A stretch of 64,000 bases of DNA, from the IMG/VR virus record IMGVR_UViG_3300028571_002018; one strand, given 5' to 3'. Made by a program: the position numbers and the translations under genes. This document shows positions 1,263 to 64,000 of the stretch, in pieces (the first letter of the stretch is position 1; every line of letters begins with the position of its first letter). This stretch comes from an uncultured virus (IMG/VR IMGVR_UViG_3300028571_002018) (Duplodnaviria > Heunggongvirae > Uroviricota > Caudoviricetes). The notes beneath the pieces were generated by a model. The model saw only the letters and a program-made list of their open reading frames with translations. It did not search any database and was not told the DNA's origin.

Positions 1263-2120
1263 ATGACAAAGGTGGCCTTCTTTGACCGACGGCTATTAGC
1301 TACCTTCTACAAGTACGCTACTGCCGTAAGTGTCTTCCTCTCCTTTGTTTTTCCATTTGTCGACATACCAAAAGACTGCTTACCCGCGCCGAGCTATGGC
1401 CTTTGGTATAAGGCTGCTGCTTTTGTGGCAGCGTTCCTCGTCGTCTATATTGTTGTTTGGGTTTGGTCTAATCGACTCAGGAATGTATCAATCAACATCG
1501 AAGGGAGTGAGGTTAATGTTGTTGCTGGGGATATATTTCAGCAGCCGGGGCTTAAGGTGATTGCTTTCAACGAATACTTTGACACCTTGGTCGACGAAAG
1601 AGTCATCTCCAGTAGATCTGTCAATGGCATGTTTGTAAAGCAAATCCTAAAGACGCCTGTCGCTGATTTGGACAATTACATCGCGAGTTATCAATTTCAG
1701 GACGATGAGATAATCGGTGAAAATCAAAACAGGCGAGCCGGAAAGAAAAAGCGGTATAAAATCGGAACAATATGTGTTTACGAGGAATTCTTGCTTACCT
1801 CATTTAGTAAGTTTGATGAGGACAACAAGGCCGTGCTTACTATGCCGGAATATTTGGAGTTCTTAATTAATTTCTGGGATAGAGTTAATTCGATCTATGG
1901 CCAGAGGAGCGTGTCAACTACAATATTCGGTTCTGGCATTACCCGCATCAAGGGGCATAAGCTCATCAGTGACGAGGATTTACTGAAGATTATGCTTTGG
2001 ACGTTTAGAATAAGTGAAATGCGCTTTAAGTATCCGGCCAAGCTGACCATCGTGATTCACGAGGAGAAGATCAATAAGATAAATCTTTTTGACATACAGA
2101 CGGTCAAGAATGGCGTTTAA
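1263..2120 (+). CDS. thsA: Thoeris type II ThsA (two TM helices plus Macro domain)
   Basis: Two hydrophobic N-terminal segments, then VVAGDIF...VIAFNEYFDT...SVNG...FGSGITR Macro-like motifs. Confidence 0.8.
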   Translation: MTKVAFFDRRLLATFYKYATAVSVFLSFVFPFVDIPKDCLPAPSYGLWYKAAAFVAAFLVVYIVVWVWSNRLRNVSINIEGSEVNVVAGDIFQQPGLKVIAFNEYFDTLVDERVISSRSVNGMFVKQILKTPVADLDNYIASYQFQDDEIIGENQNRRAGKKKRYKIGTICVYEEFLLTSFSKFDEDNKAVLTMPEYLEFLINFWDRVNSIYGQRSVSTTIFGSGITRIKGHKLISDEDLLKIMLWTFRISEMRFKYPAKLTIVIHEEKINKINLFDIQTVKNGV

Positions 2121-50035: not shown

Positions 50036-50083
50036 TGTTGCAATATCTATGCATTTGTCAATAAATTACACGCTATAGCAACA
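50036..50083. promoter_or_regulatory. Inverted repeat upstream of abiE (probable autoregulatory operator)
   Basis: TGTTGCAATA ... TATAGCAACA (9/10); AbiEi proteins are known to autorepress at promoter inverted repeats. Confidence 0.55.
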
Positions 50084-50144: not shown

Positions 50145-51089
50145 TCAAGATAGTGAGGCATCGACTTCGTTCAGCAATTCACGTGTCAGTCGGTATATGC
50201 CCGGTCGTTTGCTTTCTCGCGGGCCAGCGACATTCAGGGTCTTGATTTCGTGCTGACGCAGCCATTCGAGAACGCACTTCGCCGATTCCCCGCTAACGCC
50301 CTGATCGGCCTGAACCACAAGGAACGGCTTGTTCAATCGCTCAGCGAAGACCTGGGTGGCAAGTGTCCCCCCATCCATTTCACCGCAATTAACAATCAGC
50401 GTGCCATCACTCTCCTCAACATTACGGCGTGTACGCTGCCGGTAGCCACCGTGATCCAACTCAACCAGCTGATACTTCATGGGAATCTTGCGGTCCTCGG
50501 CTTCGCGACCCTGAGGTGCCCATCCACCGTGCGTGTAACCGTGCTCAATGGCAAAATCCAACGCGCCACGATCCGCCCCAGTCTGGCCGCCTGAAATAAT
50601 ATGCTGGCAAAAGCGAACTGCCTCGAAGTTTGATCCGCGAAACGTCGGCAAATGCATCAACGCGCCATCAGCAAGGACTTCTGTGCGCTCGGCGAGTCGA
50701 TGGTTAGGGTCTTCACAGGGTTTGTCGTAAACGACGCGATAGTCTTCACCAACCTCATCCTTCAGCAAACGCGCCAGGTGGACACCACGCGCATGAAACT
50801 CAAGCCAATCCCAATCACTTGCATCGAAATCTTCAGAGTAAAACCGCGTGCGGTCAAAGGCGACGGCCCAGTCTGCAAACTTTCTCCAAAGAACTTCCGA
50901 CATTGGACATGATTCATCCCAGCCGGTGCCATCGCATATATTGCCGCCGATGCCCAATTCATTAGGTGCATCGACAAGCCACAAGAATGGCGCATTGCCA
51001 TAGTCCACCATCACGGTGAGGACGGGAATAAAGGGCAAATTTTCAGCATTCATGATGGCGGGCTTTACGTTTTGGAGATACCAATTCAC
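50145..51089 (-). CDS. Unknown N-terminal domain plus circularly permuted YpsA-type SLOG ('putative molybdenum carrier') domain
   Basis: IISGGQTGADRGALD, RTRRNVEESDGTL, GGTLAT, LNVAGPRES. Confidence 0.8.
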   Translation of the reverse strand: MNWYLQNVKPAIMNAENLPFIPVLTVMVDYGNAPFLWLVDAPNELGIGGNICDGTGWDESCPMSEVLWRKFADWAVAFDRTRFYSEDFDASDWDWLEFHARGVHLARLLKDEVGEDYRVVYDKPCEDPNHRLAERTEVLADGALMHLPTFRGSNFEAVRFCQHIISGGQTGADRGALDFAIEHGYTHGGWAPQGREAEDRKIPMKYQLVELDHGGYRQRTRRNVEESDGTLIVNCGEMDGGTLATQVFAERLNKPFLVVQADQGVSGESAKCVLEWLRQHEIKTLNVAGPRESKRPGIYRLTRELLNEVDASLS

Positions 51090-51125
51090 TTTCTAATTGC
51101 AGTCTCCTCTTTGAGCTAGAAGTGA

Positions 51126-51944
51126 TCACCGAATGATCTCGATGATTTCCCATGCATCTTTGTTGTAGATAGGTGACGGGTGGTACTTAAATTTCACAGC
51201 AGTCTTACGGCCAATGTCTTCCCGCAATGCTCGACAAAATGAACGTCCACTTTGCAGATACGCTAGGTAAGCAGGAATCTCCGACTCACTATTTGGAAAC
51301 ACACCGATCGACTTCCACGCCAAATACGCTTCCATTAGTTCGGCTTCAAGATTGAGGTCTTCCATTTGGTATCCAACCCCGCCAACAGTGACAAAGCCAT
51401 GGTACGCATCAACCACCACTTGACAAGCCAAAATTCGCCGATCAGGCTCCATCGTATGCGCAGAAAACGGTCGTGTTTCCAGTGCCAATACCTGTTCGAG
51501 TTCGACACCATGAACTTGGAACTCACACGGAATCGGTGCTGATATGGCCAGCGATTTGATTTGCTTGATGCCCGAGTCAATTGCATCTATGTATTGCTCA
51601 GGCTCAAAAACGAAGTGCTCAAACGTCGTTACACCATGCTCCCACAGGTCAGGGGTGTCCTCATTGACTGAAAGCGGATCTGGACTTTTCCACGTGATCT
51701 CTTTATGAGAGTGTCCGACTTCAATGCCTTGAAAGATACCTGCGCACCCGGGTTGACCGCATCCGCAGGTGAAAATGTCAAGCTCGCCTGACCACTGACA
51801 ACTTTTGACAAGACTGGTTAAGTCCAATGGATGCTCTGGGTGAAACTCGACACCATTGATTTTTAGTCCGTAATCAACAACAGACCCCGAGTACCCTGGT
51901 GAATCGACCATGACTACTTCTAACTCGATGGTGTCGTACTTCAT
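51126..51944 (-). CDS. Hypothetical protein with CxCxxxxC motif
   Basis: IFTCGCGQPGCAG; the C-terminus resembles the N-terminal domain of the next gene. Confidence 0.7.
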   Translation of the reverse strand: MKYDTIELEVVMVDSPGYSGSVVDYGLKINGVEFHPEHPLDLTSLVKSCQWSGELDIFTCGCGQPGCAGIFQGIEVGHSHKEITWKSPDPLSVNEDTPDLWEHGVTTFEHFVFEPEQYIDAIDSGIKQIKSLAISAPIPCEFQVHGVELEQVLALETRPFSAHTMEPDRRILACQVVVDAYHGFVTVGGVGYQMEDLNLEAELMEAYLAWKSIGVFPNSESEIPAYLAYLQSGRSFCRALREDIGRKTAVKFKYHPSPIYNKDAWEIIEIIR

Positions 51945-51963
51945 ATGAGTCCTGAATGATCAA

Positions 51964-52737
51964 TCACATCCGATAACGCATCGGAGCAGATTGCCGCTCT
52001 TTAATCATCTTTGAAATTAGCTGTCCGGTTACATCATCCTTTTTGATGTCCATCGATGAAATCAATAATTCAGCCTCGTCAAATCGTCCTTGCTCCCTAA
52101 AAAGATCGACTAGATCGATGACATACCCCTTGCGAGAAGTTTCCCAGCGGTCAAATAGAACTTTGCTGAGACGCTGCATGTTTTGAAGTTGCACATCCGT
52201 TGGATCGAAGGCCGGATAAGTGAACGGACTGTTTTGTGGACGTCTGTATTCCGGTGGTTTTCGACGAAGGAACTTGTCCCACCAGGTTCTGCGATCTGGA
52301 TTTGCTACAACCCATGCCGTTTTGGTTGCGGCCTCTTCAGCATCCCTGTGCTGACGGTATCTATCACGGTACTCGTGATTGAGATGTCTCCAGTAACCCA
52401 GCCTAGCCGCGACCTCCATGTCCTCACTGCTCGCCTTTGAGATGCACTCGGGCAAAAGATCGTCGGGCACATGATCCATAAATGGCAGTTCATTGGACTC
52501 ATCGTCGTCCGCACTGGGTGCTGCTGGTCTCTCGATTGAGACCATGTCCTTTATCAGGACAAACCGCCCACATTTGCACCGTCGCAAGCCTTCGTCGTTC
52601 GGCATGAGTGACCACTCGCGCCAACCATCCGTCCAGTATTCAAATGCCGAAAAATTCATCGACACGTATCTTGGGAAGGCATATTGCGCACCACAGCACG
52701 GCGCTGCCATGATTCGAACACCACGAACGATGGTCAT
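51964..52737 (-). CDS. Hypothetical Zn-ribbon/helical protein
   Basis: PCCG...WTDG...RCKCG, and a TPR-like DLFREQGRFDEA. Confidence 0.65.
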   Translation of the reverse strand: MTIVRGVRIMAAPCCGAQYAFPRYVSMNFSAFEYWTDGWREWSLMPNDEGLRRCKCGRFVLIKDMVSIERPAAPSADDDESNELPFMDHVPDDLLPECISKASSEDMEVAARLGYWRHLNHEYRDRYRQHRDAEEAATKTAWVVANPDRRTWWDKFLRRKPPEYRRPQNSPFTYPAFDPTDVQLQNMQRLSKVLFDRWETSRKGYVIDLVDLFREQGRFDEAELLISSMDIKKDDVTGQLISKMIKERQSAPMRYRM

Positions 52738-52853
52738 GCTGCATTCTGCTTTCTCAACTCATGCCAGCCGTGAACGGATGTTTGACAACGTGCATTGGTC
52801 AAGGTTGACCATGCCGTATCGATGTGATGTTCGATCATCCTATTGAGTTGCCG

Positions 52854-53387
52854 TCAGAGCAGTTCTGACTGTCTGGCAAACAGACCATCGAAGGTTGCTT
52901 CAAGTCCAGGGTGAATGCCACGTACACCAGCCACCACGCGAGCCGCCCAATCAAAATAAGCTTTCTTTCGCTCCGCAGTCCAATCCGCCGGTGGCGATGC
53001 CAGGATGTCTCTCAAATTACAAATTTTGTCAGCCAGCTTGACCAATTTGGCTTCGGAGGACATAAGAGGCGCGTGCCGCACCTGTTCCTCTTTTCGAACT
53101 GCCTTTTCCAAGCTTTTGTCATCGGTCACTTCCAGCACGATGCTCGTGACCTTGTCTCCAAAAATATCTGCCAACTCTTTTGCGGTCGTATCGGTGTCTT
53201 CAACGGTGTCGTGCAGCATCGCTGCACAGATCACATCCGGGTTTTCGACACCGCCCTCAACGGCAAGAACGCTGGCCAACGCCAACGGGTGGTTGATGTA
53301 GGGCGAGGCATCGACATCTTTGCGACGCTGATTTTTGTGCTTCTCGGCTGCAAATTGGGCGGCTTTCACGATTGCTGCAACTGTCAT
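52854..53387 (-). CDS. Mesh1-like stand-alone HD hydrolase (small alarmone hydrolase family)
   Basis: AAEKHKNQRRK...PYINHP...AAMLHDTVEDT...VKLADKICNLRD. Confidence 0.88.
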   Translation of the reverse strand: MTVAAIVKAAQFAAEKHKNQRRKDVDASPYINHPLALASVLAVEGGVENPDVICAAMLHDTVEDTDTTAKELADIFGDKVTSIVLEVTDDKSLEKAVRKEEQVRHAPLMSSEAKLVKLADKICNLRDILASPPADWTAERKKAYFDWAARVVAGVRGIHPGLEATFDGLFARQSELL

Positions 53388-53470
53388 AATTTTCCCTTTC
53401 TGTATTTCATCCCTTGACACGCACCGCCGAAATCACGGTGTTCGATTTTTCATTCCGACATATTTCAGTC

Positions 53471-53652
53471 GGACAGCCCTGCGGATTCGAACCGCAGTCA
53501 GTTGAAAGATTGGCCTCCTTTTCAGCACCGGTTGCCTGGTTTCCCAACCATCCAGCGGCTTCGTAGATAAATGACAAAGGTGCCCAACCATCCCCTTGCC
53601 CTCTCAAACGTAGCGAGCACTTTTCACCATGCTTCCAATACATCAGGCTGTC
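53471..53652 (-). ncRNA. tRNA-like RNA with an insertion of about 120 nt in place of the anticodon loop
   Basis: GACAGCC/GGCTGTC acceptor, ATGT-ATTGGAA-GCAT D arm, CTGCGG-TTCGAAT-CCGCAG T arm. Confidence 0.65.
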
Positions 53653-53656
53653 TACT

Positions 53657-54853
53657 TCAACCTTTGACGCAGACGACTTGCTTGAGCGTGTGCAGAATCT
53701 CCGTCAGGTCAGCCTGATTGGCCATGACCTGATCGATGTCTTTGTAGGCACCCGGAATCTCGTCAATCACATCCTTGTCCTTGCGGCAGATCACACCTTG
53801 GGTTAGCGCCACCATGTCAGCTACCGTAAATTGCTTCTCGGCGGCGGTTCGACTCATCTTGCGTCCGGCACCATGGGCGCTGGAACAAAAGCTCTCAGGG
53901 TTACCAAGGCCGCGCACAATAAAACTGCGCGCACCCATGCTGCCTGGAACAATTCCCAGGTCACCGGCACGGGCACGAATGGCACCCTTGCGGGTCACCC
54001 AGACGTTTTCGCCGTAGTGGTGCTCTTGCGCAACATAGTTGTGGTGGCAGTTCACAGCCTCGGTCGTGACAGTAAAGGGGGGCAGATGGCGCTGTAAGGC
54101 AGCCAGCACCAGTTCTAACATCGACGTGCGGTTCTGCATCGCGTAATCCTGCGCCCAGTGAACCGCTTCCACATAATCTGCAAAGTGTTCAGAGCCTTCA
54201 GGGAAATAGGCCAGATCGCGGTCGGGCAGCTGGATCATCCAGCGTTCCATGTCCTTGCGCGCCAAAGCAATGAAGTAACTGGCAATCGCGTTACCAATGC
54301 CACGGCTGCCCGAATGCAACATAACCCACACCTGGTTAGTCTCATCTAGGCAGACTTCAATGAAGTGGTTTCCACCACCGAGCGTGCCCATCTGGTTGGC
54401 CCACTTGGAGAACTTACCAAACGCTTTGAGCAGTTCGGGGTGGCGATCAGTCAACGATTTAAGGCCTGGCTCAAACGGTTTGGAGGCATCGACCAGTACC
54501 CGCTCATCGCTATGCTGGGCACGACCGACCGGCACATCTCGACTGATCTGGTCAAAGACTTTTTGCAGCGCTTTTTCGTCGATTTCATTGGCCGTCAGCG
54601 ACAAACGTGCCGCCACCATGCCACAACCCAGGTCAACACCGACCGCAGCTGGAATGATGGCTTTATGGGTGGCAATCACCGACCCGATGGTGGCACCAAT
54701 ACCCAAATGGACATCGGGCATCGCCGCCACATGATGGTGAATGAATGGCAAACTTGCAATGTTGGTCAGTTGCTCAATTGAGCGCTCGTCCACATCGTCA
54801 GTCCATATCTTGACCGGAACTCGCTGGTCCGCAATAACTTTTTTTATGGGCAT
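53657..54853 (-). CDS. rtcB: RtcB RNA 2',3'-cyclic phosphate ligase
   Basis: MPDVHLG, VGVDLGCGM, GTLGGGNHFIE, HSGSRG, HHNY, PGSMG, SAHGAGR, DEIPGAYK. Confidence 0.95.
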   Translation of the reverse strand: MPIKKVIADQRVPVKIWTDDVDERSIEQLTNIASLPFIHHHVAAMPDVHLGIGATIGSVIATHKAIIPAAVGVDLGCGMVAARLSLTANEIDEKALQKVFDQISRDVPVGRAQHSDERVLVDASKPFEPGLKSLTDRHPELLKAFGKFSKWANQMGTLGGGNHFIEVCLDETNQVWVMLHSGSRGIGNAIASYFIALARKDMERWMIQLPDRDLAYFPEGSEHFADYVEAVHWAQDYAMQNRTSMLELVLAALQRHLPPFTVTTEAVNCHHNYVAQEHHYGENVWVTRKGAIRARAGDLGIVPGSMGARSFIVRGLGNPESFCSSAHGAGRKMSRTAAEKQFTVADMVALTQGVICRKDKDVIDEIPGAYKDIDQVMANQADLTEILHTLKQVVCVKG

Positions 54854-54871
54854 AAATTTTTCCCTCGCTTT

Positions 54872-56131
54872 TCATTGGTCCAGCAATGGCAGCTGTTCTG
54901 CCTTCGCTGCTGTGAATTCGGCAAACGGCTTGTCCCAATCTTCATAGGGAAATGCGTCGCGAACTTTTTTCTGAAAATCGCCACTGGCCAAAGTTTCGTA
55001 GGTCACACCCTTGCGAACGCACTCCAGCTTCATATCTCCAACGACACTCTCTGCAGTTGGAAAAACCTCCTCAAGACGCTTGGTCAAATAGAGCGTCACA
55101 TGATCGACCGTTACTTTTCCAGTAACTTGATCAATCAGGTCTTGCGGCGGCTTCTTCTTGAGTGCGGGAGTCAGTCCCTCCACTAATTTGTTCCTCGACG
55201 AAGCAATTTCCTTCGTAAGTCGCTCGACCACAGATTCACGAAACTTTTCAATGTCGGCCCGAATCGCTTCAATCAGCGAATCGACCTCCTTGCGCTTGCT
55301 GCGAAGAGTTATGGCACCAATGTCACCAATCGGACGGACAAATCGATCACGCAACTTGCGCACTCTGACTTCGACGGCATCAGCATCCTGACCAACTTTG
55401 CTTTTTCCATCCAACAAGTTGAAACTTGTGCGCAATCGCTTTGACGTGGCTTCGTCGCGCAAGGCCAGGATCAAGTCTTGCGGTAATTTGACGGTGTGGC
55501 GGGTAATTTGCAGGCCAGTCAGCCGCAGCTCAATGAACTCGACGTATGCGTTGAATACTGTCAGAGTGCGTGTAAGGTCAAATCGTTGCGGAGGATTCTT
55601 CACCATCTCAGCTTCCACAGCCTTCACATGGGCATCGGTTAACGGCTCCTTACCGATTTGTGGAGGGGTTGGCTTTATCGTTTCTTCGCTCGGACTACTT
55701 TTCACGTAGTCAGGGGCGACCGTGGCGAGCACACCATCAACTTGCTCTCGCGAAAGAATTAAGGCATTTGGACCACGCGGCAGATTTGGGTCTTCCACCA
55801 TCATGGCAGGAAGCATGAAAACCATCGCCAGATCATCCACCACCAGAAGACTCATGCGCAAGCCCTGCTCGACTCGCACATCGACATCGTGCTCCAACAA
55901 CATCGGCATGGGGTCAGTCTGGCCATACCCCAAACGCAGGGCGTTGGCACTGCCGTCAAGTACGACCCTAACGCGGCTTTTCACGAGACGTTTTCGAACT
56001 TCAATGAGCGCCCCTGCCACCGTGTCAGTTACCCCTGGACCAGCATAGACAGCACGGACTTTTGCCCCACGAATCATCTCTGCCACATCGTCATCTTTGA
56101 TTACTTTAAGTTCCAAGTTGTGTCCCTCCAA
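54872..56131 (-). CDS. Hypothetical protein; degenerate PLD-like N-terminus plus helical C-terminus
   Basis: VYAGPG...VRVVLD...LRMSLLVVDD spacing resembles the PLD fold but without HKD; 18 bp upstream of rtcB. Confidence 0.65.
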   Translation of the reverse strand: MEGHNLELKVIKDDDVAEMIRGAKVRAVYAGPGVTDTVAGALIEVRKRLVKSRVRVVLDGSANALRLGYGQTDPMPMLLEHDVDVRVEQGLRMSLLVVDDLAMVFMLPAMMVEDPNLPRGPNALILSREQVDGVLATVAPDYVKSSPSEETIKPTPPQIGKEPLTDAHVKAVEAEMVKNPPQRFDLTRTLTVFNAYVEFIELRLTGLQITRHTVKLPQDLILALRDEATSKRLRTSFNLLDGKSKVGQDADAVEVRVRKLRDRFVRPIGDIGAITLRSKRKEVDSLIEAIRADIEKFRESVVERLTKEIASSRNKLVEGLTPALKKKPPQDLIDQVTGKVTVDHVTLYLTKRLEEVFPTAESVVGDMKLECVRKGVTYETLASGDFQKKVRDAFPYEDWDKPFAEFTAAKAEQLPLLDQ

Positions 56132-56509
56132 ACGCTGATCTAGTAAAAGTCACCTTGGCGTTGAGGGAATCCAGATTTGGACTTTGTGTACCAAAGCGGC
56201 CGGAATGATCAGCCGGCATAGTTGCAACGTCGTTGCAAATAAATGGCAAACTAGTGTCTTCGGCAATTCGAAACCACGAGCGCAATTCGCGATCGTCCAT
56301 CCAAGCACTGGCGAGACAGCCTTGATTTGACTTCTGCTGAAGTAGTTTTACACCCATGGCGGAATCCCATTGGTGAGTCCGTTCGGCAAAAACCTAGGCA
56401 TAGACGAATTTTTGTTGAAGCGCATCGAAATTCATTTCAGTTTGTTCACCAACTGTAGGACTTTCAACGGGCGTAGACGAAAATTCCCCTACTTTATTGA
56501 GATCACACC

Positions 56510-57193
56510 ATGTGGCCATTTTTTAGTAAACAAAAGCAATCGTCGGGTATCACTGAGGTTCATACTGAATCTCGTACCCGACCGATGAAATTTTCACAAC
56601 TCCTAGATGGCATGGGAGACTTTAGTGATCTGGGCAACCACGACACAGCGATGAAGTTTTGGCTGCCCGAGCCCGCCCTTGAAGCTCTCAAGGAGATAAG
56701 CAATTTGAATGGCGACTCTGTTAGTGAAGCTTTGCGCCAGTTTTTTGCTCATCATTGCTACGGCATCTATGCGTTTCAGATGATGAACGCAAAAATTCCA
56801 GGGATTTTCAAAGACCCTGGACCTATTATGTTTTCAAGGGGTCCCAGCAATGATCCTGTAGGTAAAAAGCGTGTTCACACCTATTGGGTTCCCGAGTTGG
56901 GTAAAAACGTTATGCCGATCAAGGTGTGGGTGCCTGCCCGAATCCGAAATGATCTTCAATTGCTCGCAACCCACGTTGAGTTGAATTTGTCTCAATATGC
57001 CAGAGAGATTGTCATTTCTCGACTACTCGGGCATGGAACACTTCCTTACCGGCCAGAAATGCTGGCGGCCAATCCATTACCTGCGGCACACGACTGGTGC
57101 GAGGGAAAAGACGTACCGTTACGCCAATTATGTGATGGTGAAAAAGTTCTCCACGATGAAGTGAAGACAGTTTCCGAATGGGTCGATGCGTGA
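56510..57193 (+). CDS. Putative tandem ribbon-helix-helix DNA-binding protein
   Basis: Two internal repeats: MKFWLPEPALEALKEIS...SVSEALRQFF and IKVWVPARIRNDLQLLA...NLSQYAREIV. Confidence 0.6.
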   Translation: MWPFFSKQKQSSGITEVHTESRTRPMKFSQLLDGMGDFSDLGNHDTAMKFWLPEPALEALKEISNLNGDSVSEALRQFFAHHCYGIYAFQMMNAKIPGIFKDPGPIMFSRGPSNDPVGKKRVHTYWVPELGKNVMPIKVWVPARIRNDLQLLATHVELNLSQYAREIVISRLLGHGTLPYRPEMLAANPLPAAHDWCEGKDVPLRQLCDGEKVLHDEVKTVSEWVDA

Positions 57194-57216
57194 TCTTGAT
57201 CTGGCATTGATAACGT

Positions 57217-58944
57217 TTACAGTTCAAACAAATCTGGTTCAGCGTCGACAACGGGCATTCGTTTTTCGCCCAAGTGCTCAGAATATTTTCTGTTGACTTC
57301 TGCTACAGCCTGCTTGGCATACTTCCGAACTGCCAATTGCACTGGCTCGTTGCAAGGACCTGCAATCTCGTCCAGCGACCAGTGTCGGACACGCCGGACA
57401 GCAGAGGCCAACGCTATCCTTCGGCCTGTGCTCTTATCGCGCAGGCTAATAAGCAACTCATTGCCCTGACGGCATCGGGAAATGTAACTATCCGCGCAAT
57501 TGTGCAATGCCGTCGCCTCGGTAATCAATGCGTTTGGGGAAAGTAGTGGCACAACCATTAGCTTGCCCGATGTATCCCATTGCGCCGATTGAACCCACAA
57601 GGCCCAGGCTGGAGCGTCCTGCGTATCCTCTGCTTGTTCCAATTTTTCGTGAAATTGCACCGCCTCACGCAACCAAGAGCAACCGCGGCGTCGCTGATTC
57701 TTGTCTGGGCGAAAGGCGTACTTTCTAACCAGCCATGCCCAGCGTGGAACGCTATCAAAGAGTTCCTGATATGCCACGGCGTCCCCGCGCCTATCAGAAG
57801 CCTCGTTGCAGACAATTTGCCAAAACCAACCCGGAACACCTGCACTGGACGTTTCAAATGTGTCGGGCCGACCCGCTGAATCGTGCAACAAACGTATAAA
57901 ACCACGCGGAGCCAATGTTGGCCACCGTGATGCATCCAGAGCCTTCAGGCTCAAAATGAGCGATTCCCATGGAGAACGGTTAAGTTGGCTTGGCAGCAAG
58001 CGGTTCATTCCCTTCTCGGCCAATACACGCCAAGCCTTTTGCGACAGACCCGATGCCAGAATGTCATTCATCATCGCTGGAATGGCATCTGCCGTTTGGG
58101 AAAGATCGTTAGGTCTAGCGTACGAAAGCCACGCGGTCAGCGCAACCAACAGTCGTGGGTTTTCTCGATCCATGGTTTGAAACACGCGAAGGTTTCTCCA
58201 CACCAAGTTCAAATGCTGTGCCGTGAGGCTTGCCTTACCTGGATAGAGCCGAGCACGCAATGCGGTATCCACGAGATCTGAACCTATGTACAAAGTCAAC
58301 ATGGCGGCCAAGCGATGCCGAACTGCCGCCATTGCGCCACATCTTTTCAATCGCGCGCCAACCAAATCGATAACGTCATTGAGCGCCGAATCCATCGCGT
58401 CAAAGCTCGTAAAGAGTTGACCTTGATCCTGTTCACCAAGCTTTTTGGTGTAAGAAAACCAGCCTGGCCGGGCTGCGATATAGACAAGCCAAGTCGACTT
58501 GCAAAGTGGATTGAGTAGATCAACATTGTCCAAGCGCGAATCGACACAGTGCTTCCATGGCGGACTTTGTTTGCTGGCCTTTTCTCGACGTGAAATGGGA
58601 GATGGTTCAACCCAGACTGCCTGCTCTGACCGATCAATTACATAGTCCAACGCGCCAAAGATTCGAATCCGCAATCGACTGCCAACCGAAGACATAACGC
58701 GTATGGGGTCGGCATATAAGTGTTGCATCACATGTCCCAGCAATGCCGAAGCGCCTAAGGAAACGGTGTCCTCATACACATCCCCAGTCAAAACTGGATG
58801 TGCGAGGTGGTCACTGGTGCATTCCTTAGCCGATCGCATTCTCTGGCGAACTGCCGCATTTATCAACCGCGCCCCAATGCCGTTGTCTATCAAATATTGG
58901 ATCGGTACAAGGTGTGCTTCTCTCATGTACGGCAGGTTAGCCAA
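57217..58944 (-). CDS. PcfJ-like domain protein
   Basis: C-terminal LITEATALHNCADSY...ISLR...EIAGPCN. Confidence 0.7.
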   Translation of the reverse strand: MANLPYMREAHLVPIQYLIDNGIGARLINAAVRQRMRSAKECTSDHLAHPVLTGDVYEDTVSLGASALLGHVMQHLYADPIRVMSSVGSRLRIRIFGALDYVIDRSEQAVWVEPSPISRREKASKQSPPWKHCVDSRLDNVDLLNPLCKSTWLVYIAARPGWFSYTKKLGEQDQGQLFTSFDAMDSALNDVIDLVGARLKRCGAMAAVRHRLAAMLTLYIGSDLVDTALRARLYPGKASLTAQHLNLVWRNLRVFQTMDRENPRLLVALTAWLSYARPNDLSQTADAIPAMMNDILASGLSQKAWRVLAEKGMNRLLPSQLNRSPWESLILSLKALDASRWPTLAPRGFIRLLHDSAGRPDTFETSSAGVPGWFWQIVCNEASDRRGDAVAYQELFDSVPRWAWLVRKYAFRPDKNQRRRGCSWLREAVQFHEKLEQAEDTQDAPAWALWVQSAQWDTSGKLMVVPLLSPNALITEATALHNCADSYISRCRQGNELLISLRDKSTGRRIALASAVRRVRHWSLDEIAGPCNEPVQLAVRKYAKQAVAEVNRKYSEHLGEKRMPVVDAEPDLFEL

Positions 58945-59040
58945 CGAGGGGAATCATTACCAAAATTCCCCTCAAATTTCGCAAACCTTCGAACCGCTAA
59001 AACCTCCCACATCGCCATGAAGTTCAATACACTACCGATG

Positions 59041-59118
59041 TGCCAGGGCCGGTGGTCATAGAGACGTGCAGTGAGTAGCTGCAAGATGTCTGGTTCAAAT
59101 CCGGGCCTGACCCTGGCG
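59041..59118 (+). ncRNA. tRNA-like cloverleaf with non-canonical D and anticodon loops
   Basis: TGCCAGGGCCGG/CTGACCCTGGCG stem; GTC-ATAGA-GAC; TGCAG-TGAGTAG-CTGCA; GTCTGG-TTCAAAT-CCGGGC. Confidence 0.55.
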
Positions 59119-59185
59119 CACCGTCGTAGAAGGTGATGTTGACGGCTGACCGATAGATGATCTGGCTATTTGATGTCGTTTCGCG

Positions 59186-60061
59186 TTAACCGATATACAC
59201 CCGCACACAAGCCCGCATCGTGTTGTCGTGCAAGTCTAGTACCGGTCGAATCCCATGCATATCATCCCGCTGATAACCACCAGCCAGATTCCATGCAACC
59301 GGGACTTGCATCGCTTTACATTCTTGAAACACCAGTTCGTCGCGCCGAAGCATTTGCTCCGTTGTCATGACACCCCCCAGCGGATCATTGATATGGGGAT
59401 CGGCACCCGCCTGGTAGAGGATGAGATCACATCCCGACATGCCTTTAAGCACACTGGGCAAATGCCTGAAAAGTTCCTCCGACTTTTCAACCGTGGTGTA
59501 GGGCTGCTCCCCAAACGTGTAGTGTTGCAGCCAATTTCCCAGCTCAAGCAATTCAATGAGCGAAGCAGTCCCATCCCCGAAGTGCACATCGCAGTCCACA
59601 ATGCCCACCCGATCCACAAGGCCCGCACTTTTCAAGGCTCGTGCTGCGATGACCAAACCATTAAAAGTACAGAATCCTGCACCCTTTGCATAGCGAGCAT
59701 GGTGGAACCCTGCGACAGGTGCCACAGCTACTTTGCCATTGGCAACAGCCTCGCGTCCGGCATCAATCATTGCACCGACGGTGTACCTGCAGGTTTCAGC
59801 TATCGCCACATCTTTGTTCATAAAGCCATTGGCTTGCTGGCCTGAGAAAATCTTCCTCACGTAGTCCATCGAGTGGGCCAGGCACAGCACTTCGTCGTCG
59901 GCTGGACAAACGTCGTGTACCGAGATTGGTGCGCCCATGGCCAGCCAAGAGTGCACAACTGGTTTGGGCTTTGCTGCGCTGGGCGAAAATCCACCGCTGT
60001 CTGCGACCATCTGATCACAGTAGAAGACCGGCAGCGTTGACAGCGTTTCGTTAGTTGTCAT
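59186..60061 (-). CDS. Zn-dependent histone-deacetylase-family protein
   Basis: GFHHA, GFCTFN, DCDVHFGDGT, QAGADPHINDPLG, LAGGYQ. Confidence 0.88.
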   Translation of the reverse strand: MTTNETLSTLPVFYCDQMVADSGGFSPSAAKPKPVVHSWLAMGAPISVHDVCPADDEVLCLAHSMDYVRKIFSGQQANGFMNKDVAIAETCRYTVGAMIDAGREAVANGKVAVAPVAGFHHARYAKGAGFCTFNGLVIAARALKSAGLVDRVGIVDCDVHFGDGTASLIELLELGNWLQHYTFGEQPYTTVEKSEELFRHLPSVLKGMSGCDLILYQAGADPHINDPLGGVMTTEQMLRRDELVFQECKAMQVPVAWNLAGGYQRDDMHGIRPVLDLHDNTMRACVRVYIG

Positions 60062-60923
60062 GACCACGCCCCTTCACTTCATCCAGTGCGGATTGAATGC
60101 CCAGCAAGCCCTCGAGCGCGCTCTTAGGAATGCTGACGTCAGCACTCCCTGGCACCTGACTTTCTTGGGGATTAATACGAATCAAGCGCCCGTCGTATCG
60201 GCTGATGATGCTGTGGCTGAAATGGCGGACCGATGGTATCGCGGTTCCAGCCCCCAACTCAACGATTACCACTCGGGCTCGCGCTGATTCAACCGTGTAA
60301 AGCCACTGGTCTTCCCGGCGGGACTGAGCCCGTGTTCTGGATTCCAGCCAATTCCAATCTCCAAACATCAATATGTTCGGACGGGCAAGACTGCCGCAGG
60401 CTGAGCAGGTCGGAGGTCCATTGGTGAGGTGACAAGCATCTTCGTTGATGTGGGGCATAAATCCGTCTGCACTCCACACCGTGCGCTCGCATCTCTCCTT
60501 GCACTGGAAGTGGTGGATCGAGCCATGGCATTCATGAATCTGGTCGTCTGCAAACCCGGCCTTTTGAAACTGTCCATCCACATTGCTCGTGAATATCCAG
60601 CTACCAAACATCATCTCCTCGCTCCACTTGCGAAGAATTTGAAACCCTTCATGCGGCACGGTCTTGCGGTACAAGTCCAATCGGTGACCGTAGAAGCCCC
60701 AAGCGAGCATTGGGTCCTTCTCGAATGTCGCCGGGTTCGCCACTTGAGTAAAGTCCAACTTGGCTCGTGCCAATGCGGGGTAGGCATTCCAGAAGCCCTC
60801 ACGCCCCCGAAAATCAGGCAAGCCGGAGTCCACGCCCATGCCCGCTCCCGCCCCGATAACCAAGGCATCTGCACCAGCGATGAGCTCAGCAGCCCTGTAA
60901 AACGATGTTGTCAAGTCGGTCAT
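60051..60923 (-). CDS. Sir2-family NAD-dependent protein
   Basis: GAGAGMGVDSGLPDFRG, TSNVDG, HGS, four-Cys Zn site, RPNILMFGD. Confidence 0.9.
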   Translation of the reverse strand: MTDLTTSFYRAAELIAGADALVIGAGAGMGVDSGLPDFRGREGFWNAYPALARAKLDFTQVANPATFEKDPMLAWGFYGHRLDLYRKTVPHEGFQILRKWSEEMMFGSWIFTSNVDGQFQKAGFADDQIHECHGSIHHFQCKERCERTVWSADGFMPHINEDACHLTNGPPTCSACGSLARPNILMFGDWNWLESRTRAQSRREDQWLYTVESARARVVIVELGAGTAIPSVRHFSHSIISRYDGRLIRINPQESQVPGSADVSIPKSALEGLLGIQSALDEVKGRGHDN

Positions 60924-61795
60924 TTTTCAAAAACCTCGTTGGCATCTGGTGAAACGACCACAAGGTCGATGATTTTTGCGCAATCTGGGAACACCGCTTG
61001 CAGCCTCTCACCAAGGTGATCCCACAGAGCGACACACTCATGGACGCACTGACGATGCAACGTTATGAGGTGGCTTTCGTCCAGCGCGTTCAACCACTGT
61101 GCGGCACGAGCAATCTGGGCACTGCCACGCGGTGTCTGATCCAAGCTCGGCCATTCGCCAAGGGGCGGGATTTCGTCCCGATACACAGCCCAAATTGCCC
61201 GAAGCCGCATTCTGTCGTTCAACAGTGGACTTTCCAGATCCATCAAGTTGAGAAACGTAAGCATCTGCCCCAGGGCAGCGAGCATGTCATAGGTGTCCCA
61301 AATGGGAAGTTCCCCTTCCTCCACTGCGTAGCCCTCCTGCGCCGGGTGCACCCCAGCATCCCACCACAAAACCATGAGTTTGGTGGTACCCGTGGCCTTT
61401 TCTCGAAGGAGTTTTTGCGTGCTGACGGCCGACTGAAGTGCCTCACTTAACAGCGGATCGGACCGAACCAAAATGAAGTCCCAAAGCGACTTCTTGTCCT
61501 CCAGACTCCACTGTGCAGCAAAGTCTTCGAACTGGTTCAATCGGAATCCGCTGCGCACAGGAACCAATCCTGGCGGTCTTGGCAGAGAACCGTCCAGGAA
61601 CGCGTTGCTTACCTGCTCCTCTGATGCCTGCTCTTCTGGTACGAGCCAGAGGACCTCTGCAAATCGGTGCAAATCCTTTTTGTGCTGAATGCCCAAAACT
61701 TTATGCACATTTATGACGTTGGCCGCGTCAGACAACAGATCGTGCAAGGGCTGAAAGAGAATTGCGACGTGACGGCCGCTCGGGAGCATAGGCAT
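60920..61795 (-). CDS. Hypothetical protein
   Basis: 291-aa ORF whose stop overlaps the Sir2 start. Confidence 0.7.
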   Translation of the reverse strand: MPMLPSGRHVAILFQPLHDLLSDAANVINVHKVLGIQHKKDLHRFAEVLWLVPEEQASEEQVSNAFLDGSLPRPPGLVPVRSGFRLNQFEDFAAQWSLEDKKSLWDFILVRSDPLLSEALQSAVSTQKLLREKATGTTKLMVLWWDAGVHPAQEGYAVEEGELPIWDTYDMLAALGQMLTFLNLMDLESPLLNDRMRLRAIWAVYRDEIPPLGEWPSLDQTPRGSAQIARAAQWLNALDESHLITLHRQCVHECVALWDHLGERLQAVFPDCAKIIDLVVVSPDANEVFEK

Positions 61796-61859
61796 TGGAG
61801 TTCCTTGGGACTTGAACCCAGAGCTTATGTAAGCGTCTGCCTTGTCGCCAAAATTCCCC
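61796..61859 (-). ncRNA. Short tRNA-like element lacking a full anticodon arm
   Basis: GGGGAATTT-TG-GCG-ACAAGGCAGA-CGC-TTACATAAGCTC-TGGG-TTCAAGT-CCCA-AGGAACTCCA. Confidence 0.5.
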
Positions 61860-61990
61860 TACTTTTTAAGATTGAAGTCACTCTTGCAGTGGCGATGGAC
61901 CCATCCAACCTATTTTTTTCGGCCACTACCAAATCACCGGAAGTTACTGCCAAAATAGGCCAATTTTGACAAATCTGGATGTTTCTGCTC

Positions 61991-62221
61991 ATGGCTAAGC
62001 CCACATCGGACATTCTTACTATCACAGAAGTTGCAGAGTATTTGAAGGTCGCAGAACGGACGCTTTACCGGTTAGCCGCAGCAAGAAAGGTCCCCGCCTT
62101 CAAGGTTGGTGGTACTTGGCGGTTTTCTCGCGCGGATATTGATAAGTGGATCAAACAACAGTCCCTGGTTGCCCAGGAAAACGATATCCACGTCGTAACA
62201 AAAGGGAGTGGACTGAAATGA
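61991..62221 (+). CDS. Excisionase-family HTH regulator preceding the defence operon
   Basis: ILTITEVAEYLKVAERTLYRLA...PAFKVGGTWRF. Confidence 0.85.
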   Translation: MAKPTSDILTITEVAEYLKVAERTLYRLAAARKVPAFKVGGTWRFSRADIDKWIKQQSLVAQENDIHVVTKGSGLK

Positions 62222-62297
62222 ATAAATTCTGGAAAGATGGCAACACAGACCATCATCAAGTCTTCGCACATGTTGAAACTGAGTCGGGAAGCTGCGA

Positions 62298-64000
62298 ATG
62301 ACTGGCCGCTGGAAGACGATTTCGCCGTCCCAGTTTCCGTGGGAGCAGGATGCACTCGACTTTGTGCAGCGCGCGTTGCCCAACCGCGAGCCCTTCCGGG
62401 CCTACAGTAACTTCGAGTTTGTCGCCGACGACGGGAGCATTAACGAAGTCGATTTGCTGATCATTTCGCGCTACAGCATTTTCCTCGTTGAGATCAAAAG
62501 CCGCCCTGGGGAAGTAAGTGGCGATTCGCACACCTGGATCTGGCGCGACGGCGCCCGGGAATACTTTGACGACAACCCCTTGCTGCTCACAAACCGGAAG
62601 GCAAAAAAGCTCGCGTCGCTGCTGCGAAAGCAACTGACCGTTCAGAAACGTCGCACACCCTACATCCAGTCGCTGGTCTTCCTGTCCGACCCTGCGCAAC
62701 GTTGCAAGCTCACCGGTCCTGCTCGGGAAAATGTCCATTTGCGGGCCGACATTGCCAGCAAATTGTTCGATGAAGCGGCTCCTGTTGCCAGCGCGCAGCC
62801 GATAGACCGTGATCTGGCCACGTCACTCAATCGGGCGCTGGAAACGATCGGCATCCGTCCGCCGCAGCAAAGCCGGCGCGTTGGCGACTACCAGCTCGAA
62901 CAAGTTCTGGCTGAGACCGACTTTCACCAAGACTGGCTTGCCAAGCACGTATCGCTCACCAACCTGCGCCGACGTGTTCGTCTGTACACCGCCAAACGCA
63001 CGCTCAACGCTGCACAGCGCTCCATGCTCGCCGACGCAGCTCGGCGCGAGTTTCAGTTGCTTGAGGGCATCCGCCACCCAGGTATCCTGCGCGCTTCAGA
63101 CTTCATCGACAGCGAGCACGGGCCTGCCCTGATCTTTGAGTACGACGAAGGACTCCAGCGACTCGACCACTTCATCCGGGCGCAAGGGGAACACCTCGAT
63201 CTCTGGCAGCGGTTGAAGCTTGTCCGCGCCATTGCCGAGGCGCTGGATGCTGCTCACCGCTACCGCCTCTACCACCGAGGCCTGTCGCCGCAGACCATTA
63301 TGGTTAGGACTGTTGGTGCCAATTCGTTCGATGTCACCATCTTCGACTGGCAGATCGCCACGCGCCAGTTGCAAGAGGCCGAAGGTGAGACAACCGGAAC
63401 GCTGCATGTCGAGATGCTTTCGGACCGTGTAGCTCAAGAGATCTACCTCGCCCCAGAAGCTCGCATTGCGCCCAGACCCGACTCCATCAAGTTGGACCTG
63501 TTTTCGCTCGGAGCCATCTCCTATTTTGTGCTTGCGGGCGAACCTCCCGCCATCAGCGGTGATGAGCTGGTCACCAAGTGCGAACAAGGGCCCGGCCTCA
63601 CTTTGTCATCCATGGTCAACGGATGCCTGGCCGAGATAGAGGAACTCATCCAGTTCGCCACCTGGCCCTCTCCTGATGATCGGTTCAGCTCGACCAACGA
63701 ATTCTTGGCCGCCCTCGACAAGGCAGAAGAAGCCCTCGAGGATGCCCTGACCGCACCCGCTTCACCGCTGACGTCCCCGCTGGAGGCCAACACAGGCAAC
63801 GAACTCAATGGCTTTGAAGTCATTCGCCGACTTGGCAAGGGCGGCACAAGTTTGGCCCTTGAAGTACGCCGCCAAGGATCTGGGCAACCGCGCCAGGGCG
63901 TATTCAAGATCGCGTTGGAACCAGAGTACAACGAGCGGCTCAAGCGCGAAGCTGAAACGCTCGTGCGGCTGCAGCCCCACCAGAACATCGTCCAGTGCTT
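62298..64000 (+). CDS. pglW: BREX type 2 (Pgl) NERD plus Ser/Thr kinase PglW, 5' part (runs off the window)
   Basis: Not in the ORF track because it has no stop. Manual translation gives MTGRWKTISPSQFPWEQDAL...YSNFEF...EVDLL...VEIKS (NERD), then HPGIL, YHRGLSP, YLAPE, DLFSLG, and a second kinase LGKGG. Confidence 0.85.
   Translation, partial: MTGRWKTISPSQFPWEQDALDFVQRALPNREPFRAYSNFEFVADDGSINEVDLLIISRYSIFLVEIKSRPGEVSGDSHTWIWRDGAREYFDDNPLLLTNRKAKKLASLLRKQLTVQKRRTPYIQSLVFLSDPAQRCKLTGPARENVHLRADIASKLFDEAAPVASAQPIDRDLATSLNRALETIGIRPPQQSRRVGDYQLEQVLAETDFHQDWLAKHVSLTNLRRRVRLYTAKRTLNAAQRSMLADAARREFQLLEGIRHPGILRASDFIDSEHGPALIFEYDEGLQRLDHFIRAQGEHLDLWQRLKLVRAIAEALDAAHRYRLYHRGLSPQTIMVRTVGANSFDVTIFDWQIATRQLQEAEGETTGTLHVEMLSDRVAQEIYLAPEARIAPRPDSIKLDLFSLGAISYFVLAGEPPAISGDELVTKCEQGPGLTLSSMVNGCLAEIEELIQFATWPSPDDRFSSTNEFLAALDKAEEALEDALTAPASPLTSPLEANTGNELNGFEVIRRLGKGGTSLALEVRRQGSGQPRQGVFKIALEPEYNERLKREAETLVRLQPHQNIVQC

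What the first reader, a model, noticed from the sequence alone, without database searches (positions are those of the whole stretch)
50145..61865. Candidate undescribed system: RtcB island combining 'damage-reversal' enzymes with several tRNA-like RNAs
Seen: a lower-GC block between abiE and pglW encodes RtcB, a Mesh1-like HD hydrolase, a cpYpsA SLOG fusion, an HDAC, a Sir2, PcfJ, a PLD-like protein and unknowns. Its spacers hold three T-arm-containing tRNA-like elements. Established: RtcB religates RNase-cut RNA, Mesh1/SAH enzymes remove (p)ppGpp/(p)ppApp-type alarmones, HDAC and sirtuins remove acyl groups, and SLOG domains handle nucleotides. No Ro60/TROVE, rtcA or rtcR, the usual rtcB partners, appears in the window. 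Inference: this may be a co-regulated antidote/recovery kit against toxin, abortive-infection or phage-inflicted damage to translation, with tRNA mimics as substrates, decoys or processing signals.
Basis: partly seen in the sequence, partly recalled or inferred. Interest (0 to 1): 0.82.

Follow-up and report, generated by a model that had tools for sequence, protein, structure and literature searches.

The report
New master switch for repair genes
A stretch of mobile bacterial DNA puts an RNA-mending enzyme and several clean-up enzymes behind three copies of a previously undescribed promoter that travels with a small DNA-binding protein, probably their shared on-switch; the tRNA-like RNAs first proposed have no detectable relatives.

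Summary
The genes are as described; the PLD-like protein has the fold only. They are not a fixed set: among 80 close RtcB loci, cpYpsA occurs in 6, HD 5, Sir2 4, HDAC 1, PcfJ 1. Three T-arm hairpins exist beyond chance, but none is a tRNA or Rfam RNA, none has a homolog, and one straddles a promoter. All ten minus-strand genes lie behind three copies of one promoter, AGGGGAATTTT-N22-TAnnnT, the only such sites in 64 kb. One copy abuts a divergent 227-aa gene with a TraY-like tandem ribbon-helix-helix fold. The window-derived pattern recurs in 32 of 79 loci of that regulator, 0 of 80 RtcB loci lacking it, and, relaxed, 0 of 401 genomes. There it often heads Sir2, cpYpsA, PcfJ, DUF932, ADP-ribosylglycohydrolase or RtcB genes. 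Best reading: an island-borne regulon of interchangeable repair-type cargo, activated from a site replacing the -35 box. Binding, sign of control, trigger and protection are inferred, untested.

The parts
61822..61867 (-). Promoter P1: A-rich run + AGGGGAATTTT (61860-61850), 22 nt, -10 box TAAGCT; heads unk291-sir2-hdac
   Evidence: profile score 38.7 bits
60920..61795 (-). unk291, unknown protein; homologs recur beside the RHH gene
   Evidence: no Pfam or Atlas hit; 5 of 41 RHH lineages
60051..60923 (-). Sir2-family NAD-dependent protein (overlaps both neighbours)
   Evidence: PF02146 E 4e-22; gaps -4 and -11
59186..60061 (-). HDAC-family Zn-dependent deacylase
   Evidence: PF00850 E 4e-31; PDB relatives
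59037..59121 (+). E2: cloverleaf-like fold with T-arm and long closing stem, antisense to neighbours; best candidate for a real small RNA, no homolog found
   Evidence: z -2.7 for 90 nt, -1.3 for the 70-nt core; absent in L120
58934..58979 (-). Promoter P2: AGGGGAATTTT (58972-58962), 22 nt, TAACCT; 7 nt before the ATG at 58926 (likely leaderless); core sits in a 10-bp inverted repeat
   Evidence: (21.2 bits); kept in L120
57217..58926 (-). PcfJ-like protein
   Evidence: PF14284 at cut-off; 7 of 41 RHH lineages
56510..57193 (+). RHH227: single-chain tandem ribbon-helix-helix protein, proposed regulator
   Evidence: model pLDDT 83.7 with two strand-helix-helix units; TraY-containing relaxosome chain Z 10.2, single-chain Arc Z 8.5, AvtR Z 7.9; 340 homologs
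56452..56497 (-). Promoter P3: AGGGGAATTTT (56490-56480), 22 nt, TACAGT; 19 nt from the RHH start codon on the other strand; heads pld-rtcB-hd-unk257-unk272-cpYpsA
   Evidence: 35.3 bits
54872..56131 (-). Protein with an N-terminal PLD-like fold lacking a conserved HxK motif
53657..54853 (-). RtcB RNA ligase of a mobile proteobacterial clade (closest 94-96% in Rhodoferax-labelled records)
53471..53562 (-). E1: T-arm with degenerate acceptor and further hairpins; no homolog found
52854..53387 (-). Mesh1-like HD hydrolase
51964..52737 (-). unk257, Cys-motif protein of unknown function
   Evidence: no family hit; homologs in L115, L143
51126..51944 (-). unk272, unknown protein
   Evidence: no family hit; homologs beside rtcB in 3 of 80 loci
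50145..51053 (-). cpYpsA SLOG domain fused to an unknown N-terminal domain
   Evidence: PF12694 E 2e-56
61796..61859 (-). E3: tRNA-like D- and T-arm look-alike that overlaps promoter P1 (its 5' half is the site, spacer and -10 box)

Best explanation
The block is the cargo of a small island-borne regulon. RHH227, a single-chain pseudo-dimeric ribbon-helix-helix protein, binds the asymmetric site (AAAAAGT)AGGGGAATTTT, which sits at about -52 to -35, always in one orientation and 22 nt before a sigma-70-type -10 box, where no consensus -35 box exists. Bound there it recruits RNA polymerase, as class II activators do, and turns on three transcripts covering all ten minus-strand genes; the copy next to its own start codon also limits its own expression. 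The cargo differs between islands but is drawn repeatedly from one pool of enzymes that reverse or clear damage and signals of toxin and anti-phage conflict (RNA breaks, alarmones, acyl and ADP-ribose adducts). The T-arm hairpins are mostly decayed tRNA-like or integration-site remnants and not needed. Shown: genes, sites, spacing, fold, site-regulator co-occurrence. Inferred: binding, activation, autorepression, operon extent, recovery function. Trigger unknown.
For: Core 11-mer with <=1 mismatch occurs exactly 3 times in 64 kb, all in island spacers on one strand (0.005 expected); all three have TAnnnT after 22 nt. A profile trained on 43 sites from other loci finds only these three above 8 bits in the window and none above 12 bits in 80 RtcB loci. 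The strict window-derived pattern: 35 hits in 32 of 79 RHH loci (508 kb), 0 in 80 RtcB loci (1.19 Mb), 0 in 34 other loci; 19 of 41 RHH lineages strict, 32 of 41 relaxed (own lineage included); 31 of 43 distinct cores have TAnnnT at exactly 22 nt, 4 at 23. 33 of 56 distinct loci have the core within -120..+40 of the RHH start, at 42-100% protein identity. Neither RHH nor pattern in 401 genomes of the order (both searches ring on positive records). In 17 lineages with partner homologs, 20 of 33 hits lie downstream of and co-oriented with a site. Tandem RHH fold; the tandem RHH AvtR represses its own gene and activates the neighbour (PMC5569661, passages); the RHH protein TprA is needed for expression of an island operon (PMC8565334, passages). 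Long loci lie beside restriction-type helicases and methylases, WYL genes, integrases or tRNA ends.
Against: No binding or expression data. 9 of 41 RHH lineages lack even the relaxed pattern (some contigs are short) and 23 of 56 lack a site at the RHH start. A motif-only scan of viral contigs gave 9 loci, only 2 with the RHH; 5 are one AT-rich hairpin, 2 unexplained. 13 of 33 partner hits are not behind a detected site. Much regulon cargo is not repair-like or has no family (SnoaL, GDSL, CRISPR-associated, small unknowns). Most RHH proteins are repressors (recalled). Read-through from P3 across the 269-nt hairpin-rich rtcB-hd gap is unproven.
Confidence: 0.55

Rival explanations
1. Same regulon, opposite sign: the promoters work unaided (A-rich UP element, weak TT-only -35) and RHH227 represses them until stress removes it, as TrcR does for rtcB and the tRNA array of Anabaena.
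For: TrcR is an RHH repressor of rtcB and the trn array (PMC10272220, passages); the site overlaps the -35 region; the A-run could serve as UP element.
Against: TrcR sites overlap or lie near the -10 box; here spacing is fixed at 22 nt and orientation is fixed (31 of 43) and the -35 position is not conserved beyond the TT of the site, which suits a polymerase contact more than steric blocking.
Confidence: 0.2
2. The site is read by a factor from elsewhere (helper element, phage or host sigma factor) and the RHH gene is only one of its targets or a passenger.
For: 7 of 9 motif-found viral loci lack the RHH; islands activated in trans by a helper's activator are known (AcaCD; abstract listing).
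Against: No pattern in 401 genomes of the order, so not a common host factor; site stays unchanged beside RHH genes down to 42% identity and across low- and high-GC contigs.
Confidence: 0.1
3. One reading: a dedicated RtcB antidote kit in which tRNA-like RNAs act as decoys, substrates or processing signals.
For: T-arms exceed chance; E2 folds as a cloverleaf; close RtcB relatives sit beside tRNA arrays (L006, L037, L038) or Ro60 with a T-arm (L038, L076); tRNA decoy ideas exist for Anabaena arrays and YrlA (PMC8421152, PMC7790460, passages).
Against: No homolog of E1-E3 in any fetched locus, viral contigs, plasmids, phages or 251 family genomes; no T-arm within 500 nt downstream of rtcB, same strand, in 72 of 75 loci, the 3 others being tRNA genes in distant clades; E2 missing in L120; best alignments to 74 real tRNAs do not beat shuffles; gene set not fixed.
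Confidence: 0.1
4. Unorganised accretion of mobile genes in a defence hotspot with no shared control.
For: Gene content and order differ in every related locus; orphan T-arms in relatives are mostly tRNA/tmRNA-end scars.
Against: Three identical promoters head all three units and recur with the regulator.
Confidence: 0.05

Closest known systems
TrcR regulon of Anabaena PCC 7120 (RHH repressor of rtcB and the trn tRNA array; PMC10272220, PMC8421152)
   Same: An RHH-family protein, autoregulated, controls rtcB and other stress genes through a repeated promoter motif.
   Different: TrcR is a conserved chromosomal repressor with an 8-bp site at the -10 box; here a tandem RHH on mobile islands, an 11-18 bp asymmetric site 22 nt upstream of -10, variable cargo and no tRNA array.
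RtcR-rtcBA and rsr-yrlBA-rtcBA operons (PMC7790460)
   Same: RtcB in an inducible unit with a divergent regulator; tRNA-like RNA nearby.
   Different: No RtcR, RtcA or Ro60 in the window; sigma-70-type -10 box rather than a sigma-54 activator; E1-E3 match no Rfam family.
Tandem or island RHH regulators: F TraY, AvtR, TprA of PAPI-1
   Same: Fold (Z 10.2 and 7.9); AvtR represses itself and activates the neighbour; TprA controls an island operon.
   Different: No sequence family match beyond a weak RHH_1 hit (E 0.02); extra conserved N- and C-terminal parts; targets are enzymes, not transfer or virus genes; the TprA site lies about 250 nt upstream of its gene.
RNA-repair and NAD+/ADP-ribose conflict neighbourhoods described by Aravind and colleagues (PMC9503650 passages; Burroughs and Aravind 2016, recalled, not held)
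   Same: RtcB, sirtuin, SLOG, ADP-ribosylglycohydrolase and related domains cluster loosely and are proposed to counter conflict damage or signals.
   Different: No shared regulator or promoter class of this kind was seen in the passages read.

Membership tests
RtcR-regulated rtcBA operon | rtcB present and intact | tested here: met
   PF01139 full length; aligns to P. horikoshii RtcB over residues 10-395
RtcR-regulated rtcBA operon | rtcA and sigma-54 activator rtcR adjacent | tested here: not met
   no tblastn hit in the window with RtcA and RtcR from L044, L046; the rest of the genome is not held
Rsr/Y RNA (YrlA) module | Ro60/TROVE gene next to the RNA | tested here: not met
   no hit with the Ro60-vWA protein of L038
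Rsr/Y RNA (YrlA) module | RNA matches a Y RNA model | tested here: inconclusive
   no Rfam match; whether Rfam holds a suitable bacterial model was not checked
tRNA gene or tRNA array | complete cloverleaf scored as tRNA | tested here: not met
   ARAGORN 0; Rfam tRNA not hit at E<=10
TrcR-type regulon | RHH regulator with a repeated site before its own gene and before rtcB's unit | tested here: met
TrcR-type regulon | site overlaps the -10 box; repression | tested here: not met
   site ends 22 nt upstream of the -10 box; sign of control itself not testable here
TrcR-type regulon | sequence homology to TrcR | not tested
   TrcR sequence was not fetched
Tandem RHH proteins (TraY, AvtR) | two strand-helix-helix units in one chain forming one DNA-binding sheet | tested here: met
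   E46-53/H54-67/H71-95 and E134-141/H143-155/H160-173; Z 10.2, rmsd 2.7, 88 aligned; predicted model
Class II activator-dependent promoter | site at fixed distance and orientation abutting -35, weak -35 box, intact -10 box | tested here: met
Class II activator-dependent promoter | activation through contact with RNA polymerase | not testable with these tools
   needs reporter or in vitro transcription
Mesh1/small alarmone hydrolase | stand-alone HD domain with Mesh1-type motifs | tested here: met
   E 1e-48 to human Mesh1, HD motif aligned; substrate untested
Active phospholipase D / Nuc nuclease | conserved HxKxxxxD motif | tested here: not met
   no conserved His or Lys among invariant columns of 82 homologs; fold similarity only
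Catalogued anti-phage system (PADLOC) | island proteins match system models | tested here: not met
   0 hits for the 11 island proteins; only flanking MAD1-type HTH and PglW match

The most novel reading that the evidence does not exclude
A mobile, self-contained master switch: a tandem-RHH activator family with its own promoter class that has repeatedly captured interchangeable damage-reversal genes in defence islands and induces them together to revive cells after toxin or abortive-infection damage, sensing the trigger through its extra conserved His/Cys-containing and terminal parts; E2 may be a private small RNA of this island.
Probability: 0.3. Interest if true: 0.8.

Novelty: new variant of a known kind. 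Interest (0 to 1): 0.6.

Why it matters
It would be a third way of controlling RtcB-type repair after RtcR and TrcR, carried on mobile DNA, and it defines by promoter a set of otherwise unlinked and unknown genes (PcfJ-like, unk291, DUF932, PLD-fold, cpYpsA fusions) as one functional group. That makes the recovery-kit idea directly testable: supply one regulator and read the regulon. An 11-18 bp site absent from 401 genomes would also be an orthogonal inducible switch.

Tried and rejected
Own genome not held; nearest genome G001 shares the prophage to about 47.9 kb, not the island. Generic promoter scan: 5 sites, fewer than shuffles, and it misses P1-P3. Repeat finder showed no att-like repeat. 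RHH227 not found in plasmid or phage collections, by peptide scan of viral contigs, or in 15 genomes behind RtcB loci with partner genes. PLD-like protein not found in viral contigs. No RNA holder listed; two runs labelled RNA look like DNA: no evidence on expression. An 8-nt word after E2 was not enriched (15 in 508 kb vs 33 in 1.19 Mb). Parent tRNAs for E1-E3 could not be assigned. Atlas gave no hit for unk291. Foldseek gave no match at E<=0.001 for either model. Earlier scan findings: none in 5 look-ups. Literature: no paper on this regulator or motif in the listings (20 of 61 listed); subscription papers and bioRxiv supplements were not visible, and gene-neighbourhood supplements of Aravind-group papers could hold this family.
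Full report
Setting. The window's first 47.9 kb is a lambda-like prophage (portal, terminase, capsid, tape measure, serine recombinase, 20 window ORFs scanned) shared in part at 95-96% with genome G001, where the matching end lies next to a tmRNA 3' end. The block in question lies outside it, between abiEi/abiEii, which has its own consensus promoter at 50061, and a MAD1-type HTH plus BREX pglW. GC is 0.52 against 0.64. Near-identical copies occur in lake, wastewater, sludge and sediment metagenomes of 16 studies; a 6.9-kb contig of run X4 spans 55438-62336 with 26 differences, so the arrangement is not an assembly artefact.

Genes. RtcB, Mesh1-like HD, cpYpsA fusion, HDAC and Sir2 are confirmed; PcfJ is marginal. 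The 419-aa protein has a PLD-like N-terminal fold (TrmBL2, NucT, FAM83; E 3e-3 to 8e-3) without catalytic motif. None of the 11 island proteins matches PADLOC. RtcA, RtcR and Ro60 are absent from the window.

Is it a fixed RtcB system? No. In the best 80 of 591 confirmed RtcB loci, homologs occur for cpYpsA in 6, HD 5, Sir2 4, unk272 3, HDAC 1, PcfJ 1, RHH227 0; among the 34 loci of 20 kb or more, 4, 3, 3, 1, 0, 1. This RtcB clade is promiscuous: neighbours include MerR plus VIT-vWA (11 loci), RlaP, Ro60, KptA, ADP-ribosylglycohydrolase, WYL and tRNA arrays (124 of 231 neighbour representatives scanned). RtcB beside tRNA arrays and co-regulated with them is published (PMC8421152, passages).

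The RNAs. Three T-arms lie in spacers, far above chance. E1 (53471-53562, minus) has a T-arm and a poor acceptor. E2 (plus strand) folds as a cloverleaf with a long closing stem (z -2.7). E3 looks like D- and T-arms without anticodon arm. None scores as tRNA or Rfam RNA; none aligns to 74 real tRNAs better than shuffles; no homolog was found in fetched loci, viral contigs, plasmids, phages (E1 only) or 251 family genomes (E1, E2). In L120 (RHH 88%, PcfJ 81% identical) promoter P2 is kept and E2 is replaced. E3's 5' half is promoter P1 itself, so it cannot be made from that promoter, and the other promoter copies have no such arms. Orphan T-arms in related loci are largely tRNA or tmRNA ends at island borders. 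I read E1-E3 as remnants; their excess is not fully explained and E2 could be a private RNA.

The organiser. The 11-mer AGGGGAATTTT occurs exactly three times in 64 kb even allowing one mismatch, at 61860, 58972 and 56490, all minus strand, all intergenic. Each is followed after exactly 22 nt by TAAGCT, TAACCT or TACAGT, a sigma-70-type -10 box (label from established knowledge). They head unk291-sir2-hdac, pcfJ, and pld-rtcB-hd-unk257-unk272-cpYpsA, i.e. all ten minus-strand genes (gaps). The third lies 19 nt from the start of a divergent 227-aa gene. Its model has two ribbon-helix-helix units and is closest to an F relaxosome chain (TraY by length and by the Atlas row; Z 10.2), single-chain Arc and AvtR. 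The family has 340 close homologs and 196 representatives at E<=1e-10, unnamed in the records listed. A single-chain pseudo-dimer fits a non-palindromic site (inference).

Test on independent loci. With the pattern fixed from the window alone, 32 of 79 RHH loci carry it (35 hits), against 0 of 80 RtcB loci and 0 of 34 others; by lineage at 85% identity 19 of 41 strict and 32 of 41 relaxed, own lineage included; 31 of 43 distinct cores have the -10 box at 22 nt. 33 of 56 have the core at the RHH start. A profile from 43 outside sites finds only the three window sites (its 61 of 80 in RHH loci is circular and not relied on). Neither protein nor pattern is in 401 genomes of the order (controls 117, 118). 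Against: a motif-only viral scan gave 9 loci, 2 with RHH. Behind the sites lie Sir2, cpYpsA, PcfJ-like, HD, unk291, RtcB fragments, DUF932, ADP-ribosylglycohydrolase, VIT-vWA, SnoaL, WYL, CRISPR-associated and many unknown genes (55 of 109 representatives plus 7 other members scanned). In the 17 other lineages with homologs of the window's genes (one locus each), 20 of 33 hits are downstream of and co-oriented with a site; 7 of the 13 misses are in three loci with no detected site. 12 of 19 lineages with contigs of 6 kb or more, own included, hold at least one such homolog. Long loci often border restriction-type helicases, methylases, integrases or tRNA ends (70 of 177 ORFs scanned).

Mechanism. 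Fixed spacing, fixed orientation, a site ending at -35 and no -35 consensus fit a class II activator (established knowledge). The site next to the regulator's own start suggests autorepression, as for AvtR, which represses its own gene and activates its neighbour (PMC5569661, passages). Repression in the manner of TrcR (PMC10272220, passages) is the main rival. The cargo's known chemistry (RNA ligation, alarmone hydrolysis, deacylation, ADP-ribose and nucleotide processing; PMC9503650, passages) fits recovery from conflict damage, but no protection is shown and much cargo is unclassified.

Novelty. Repair-gene clusters and RHH control of rtcB are known. This regulator family and promoter class did not appear in the listings of my searches. 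Verdict: new variant of a known kind; interest 0.6.

Noticed in passing
window 2000-47900: Lambda-like prophage with serine recombinase, two ParB-methylase genes and HTH-IrrE regulator; relatives in G001 and provirus record G002; L201 carries the RHH gene next to a 79% identical recombinase.
   Followed up: partly
window 1263-2120 (+): ThsA Macro-domain protein (Thoeris-like) in a low-GC patch at the left end of the prophage.
   Followed up: no
window 61979-64000 (+): HTH scoring as MADS MAD1 directly before BREX PglW; site P1 lies in the same divergent spacer.
   Followed up: no
window 58926-58975: PcfJ-like gene probably starts at an ATG 7 nt past the -10 box (leaderless); the site core lies in a 10-bp inverted repeat (z -4.8) that is broken in L120.
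   Followed up: partly
window 56131-56450: About 330-nt leader between promoter P3 and the PLD-like gene, with an 83-codon ORF of unknown reality.
   Followed up: no
L037 7446-9345, L038 3107-4248, L045 1125-4864, L006 9292-9754: tRNA arrays (16, 9, 18, 3 genes) beside close RtcB relatives, some with HNH and Ro60 genes.
   Followed up: partly
L038 about 6941 and L076 about 942: Similar T-arm elements between a Ro60-type gene and rtcB, probably Y RNA-like; not scored by ARAGORN.
   Followed up: no
L123 510-2096 and L158 1-1161: CRISPR-associated genes (Cas6-like, Cas3 HD-helicase) lie downstream of the RHH-linked promoter.
   Followed up: no
L008, L010, L011, L012, L016, L019, L029, L034, L083: MerR-HTH and/or VIT-vWA genes directly upstream of rtcB, the commonest context of this RtcB clade.
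   Followed up: partly
window 56510-56530 and residues 82-85 of RHH227: Conserved N-terminal MWPF motif followed by a disordered stretch, and conserved HCYG; possible targeting or sensing elements (speculation).
   Followed up: no
L202, L203, L205, L206, L207: One AT-rich virus group has the same core inside a short inverted repeat, without the RHH gene nearby.
   Followed up: partly
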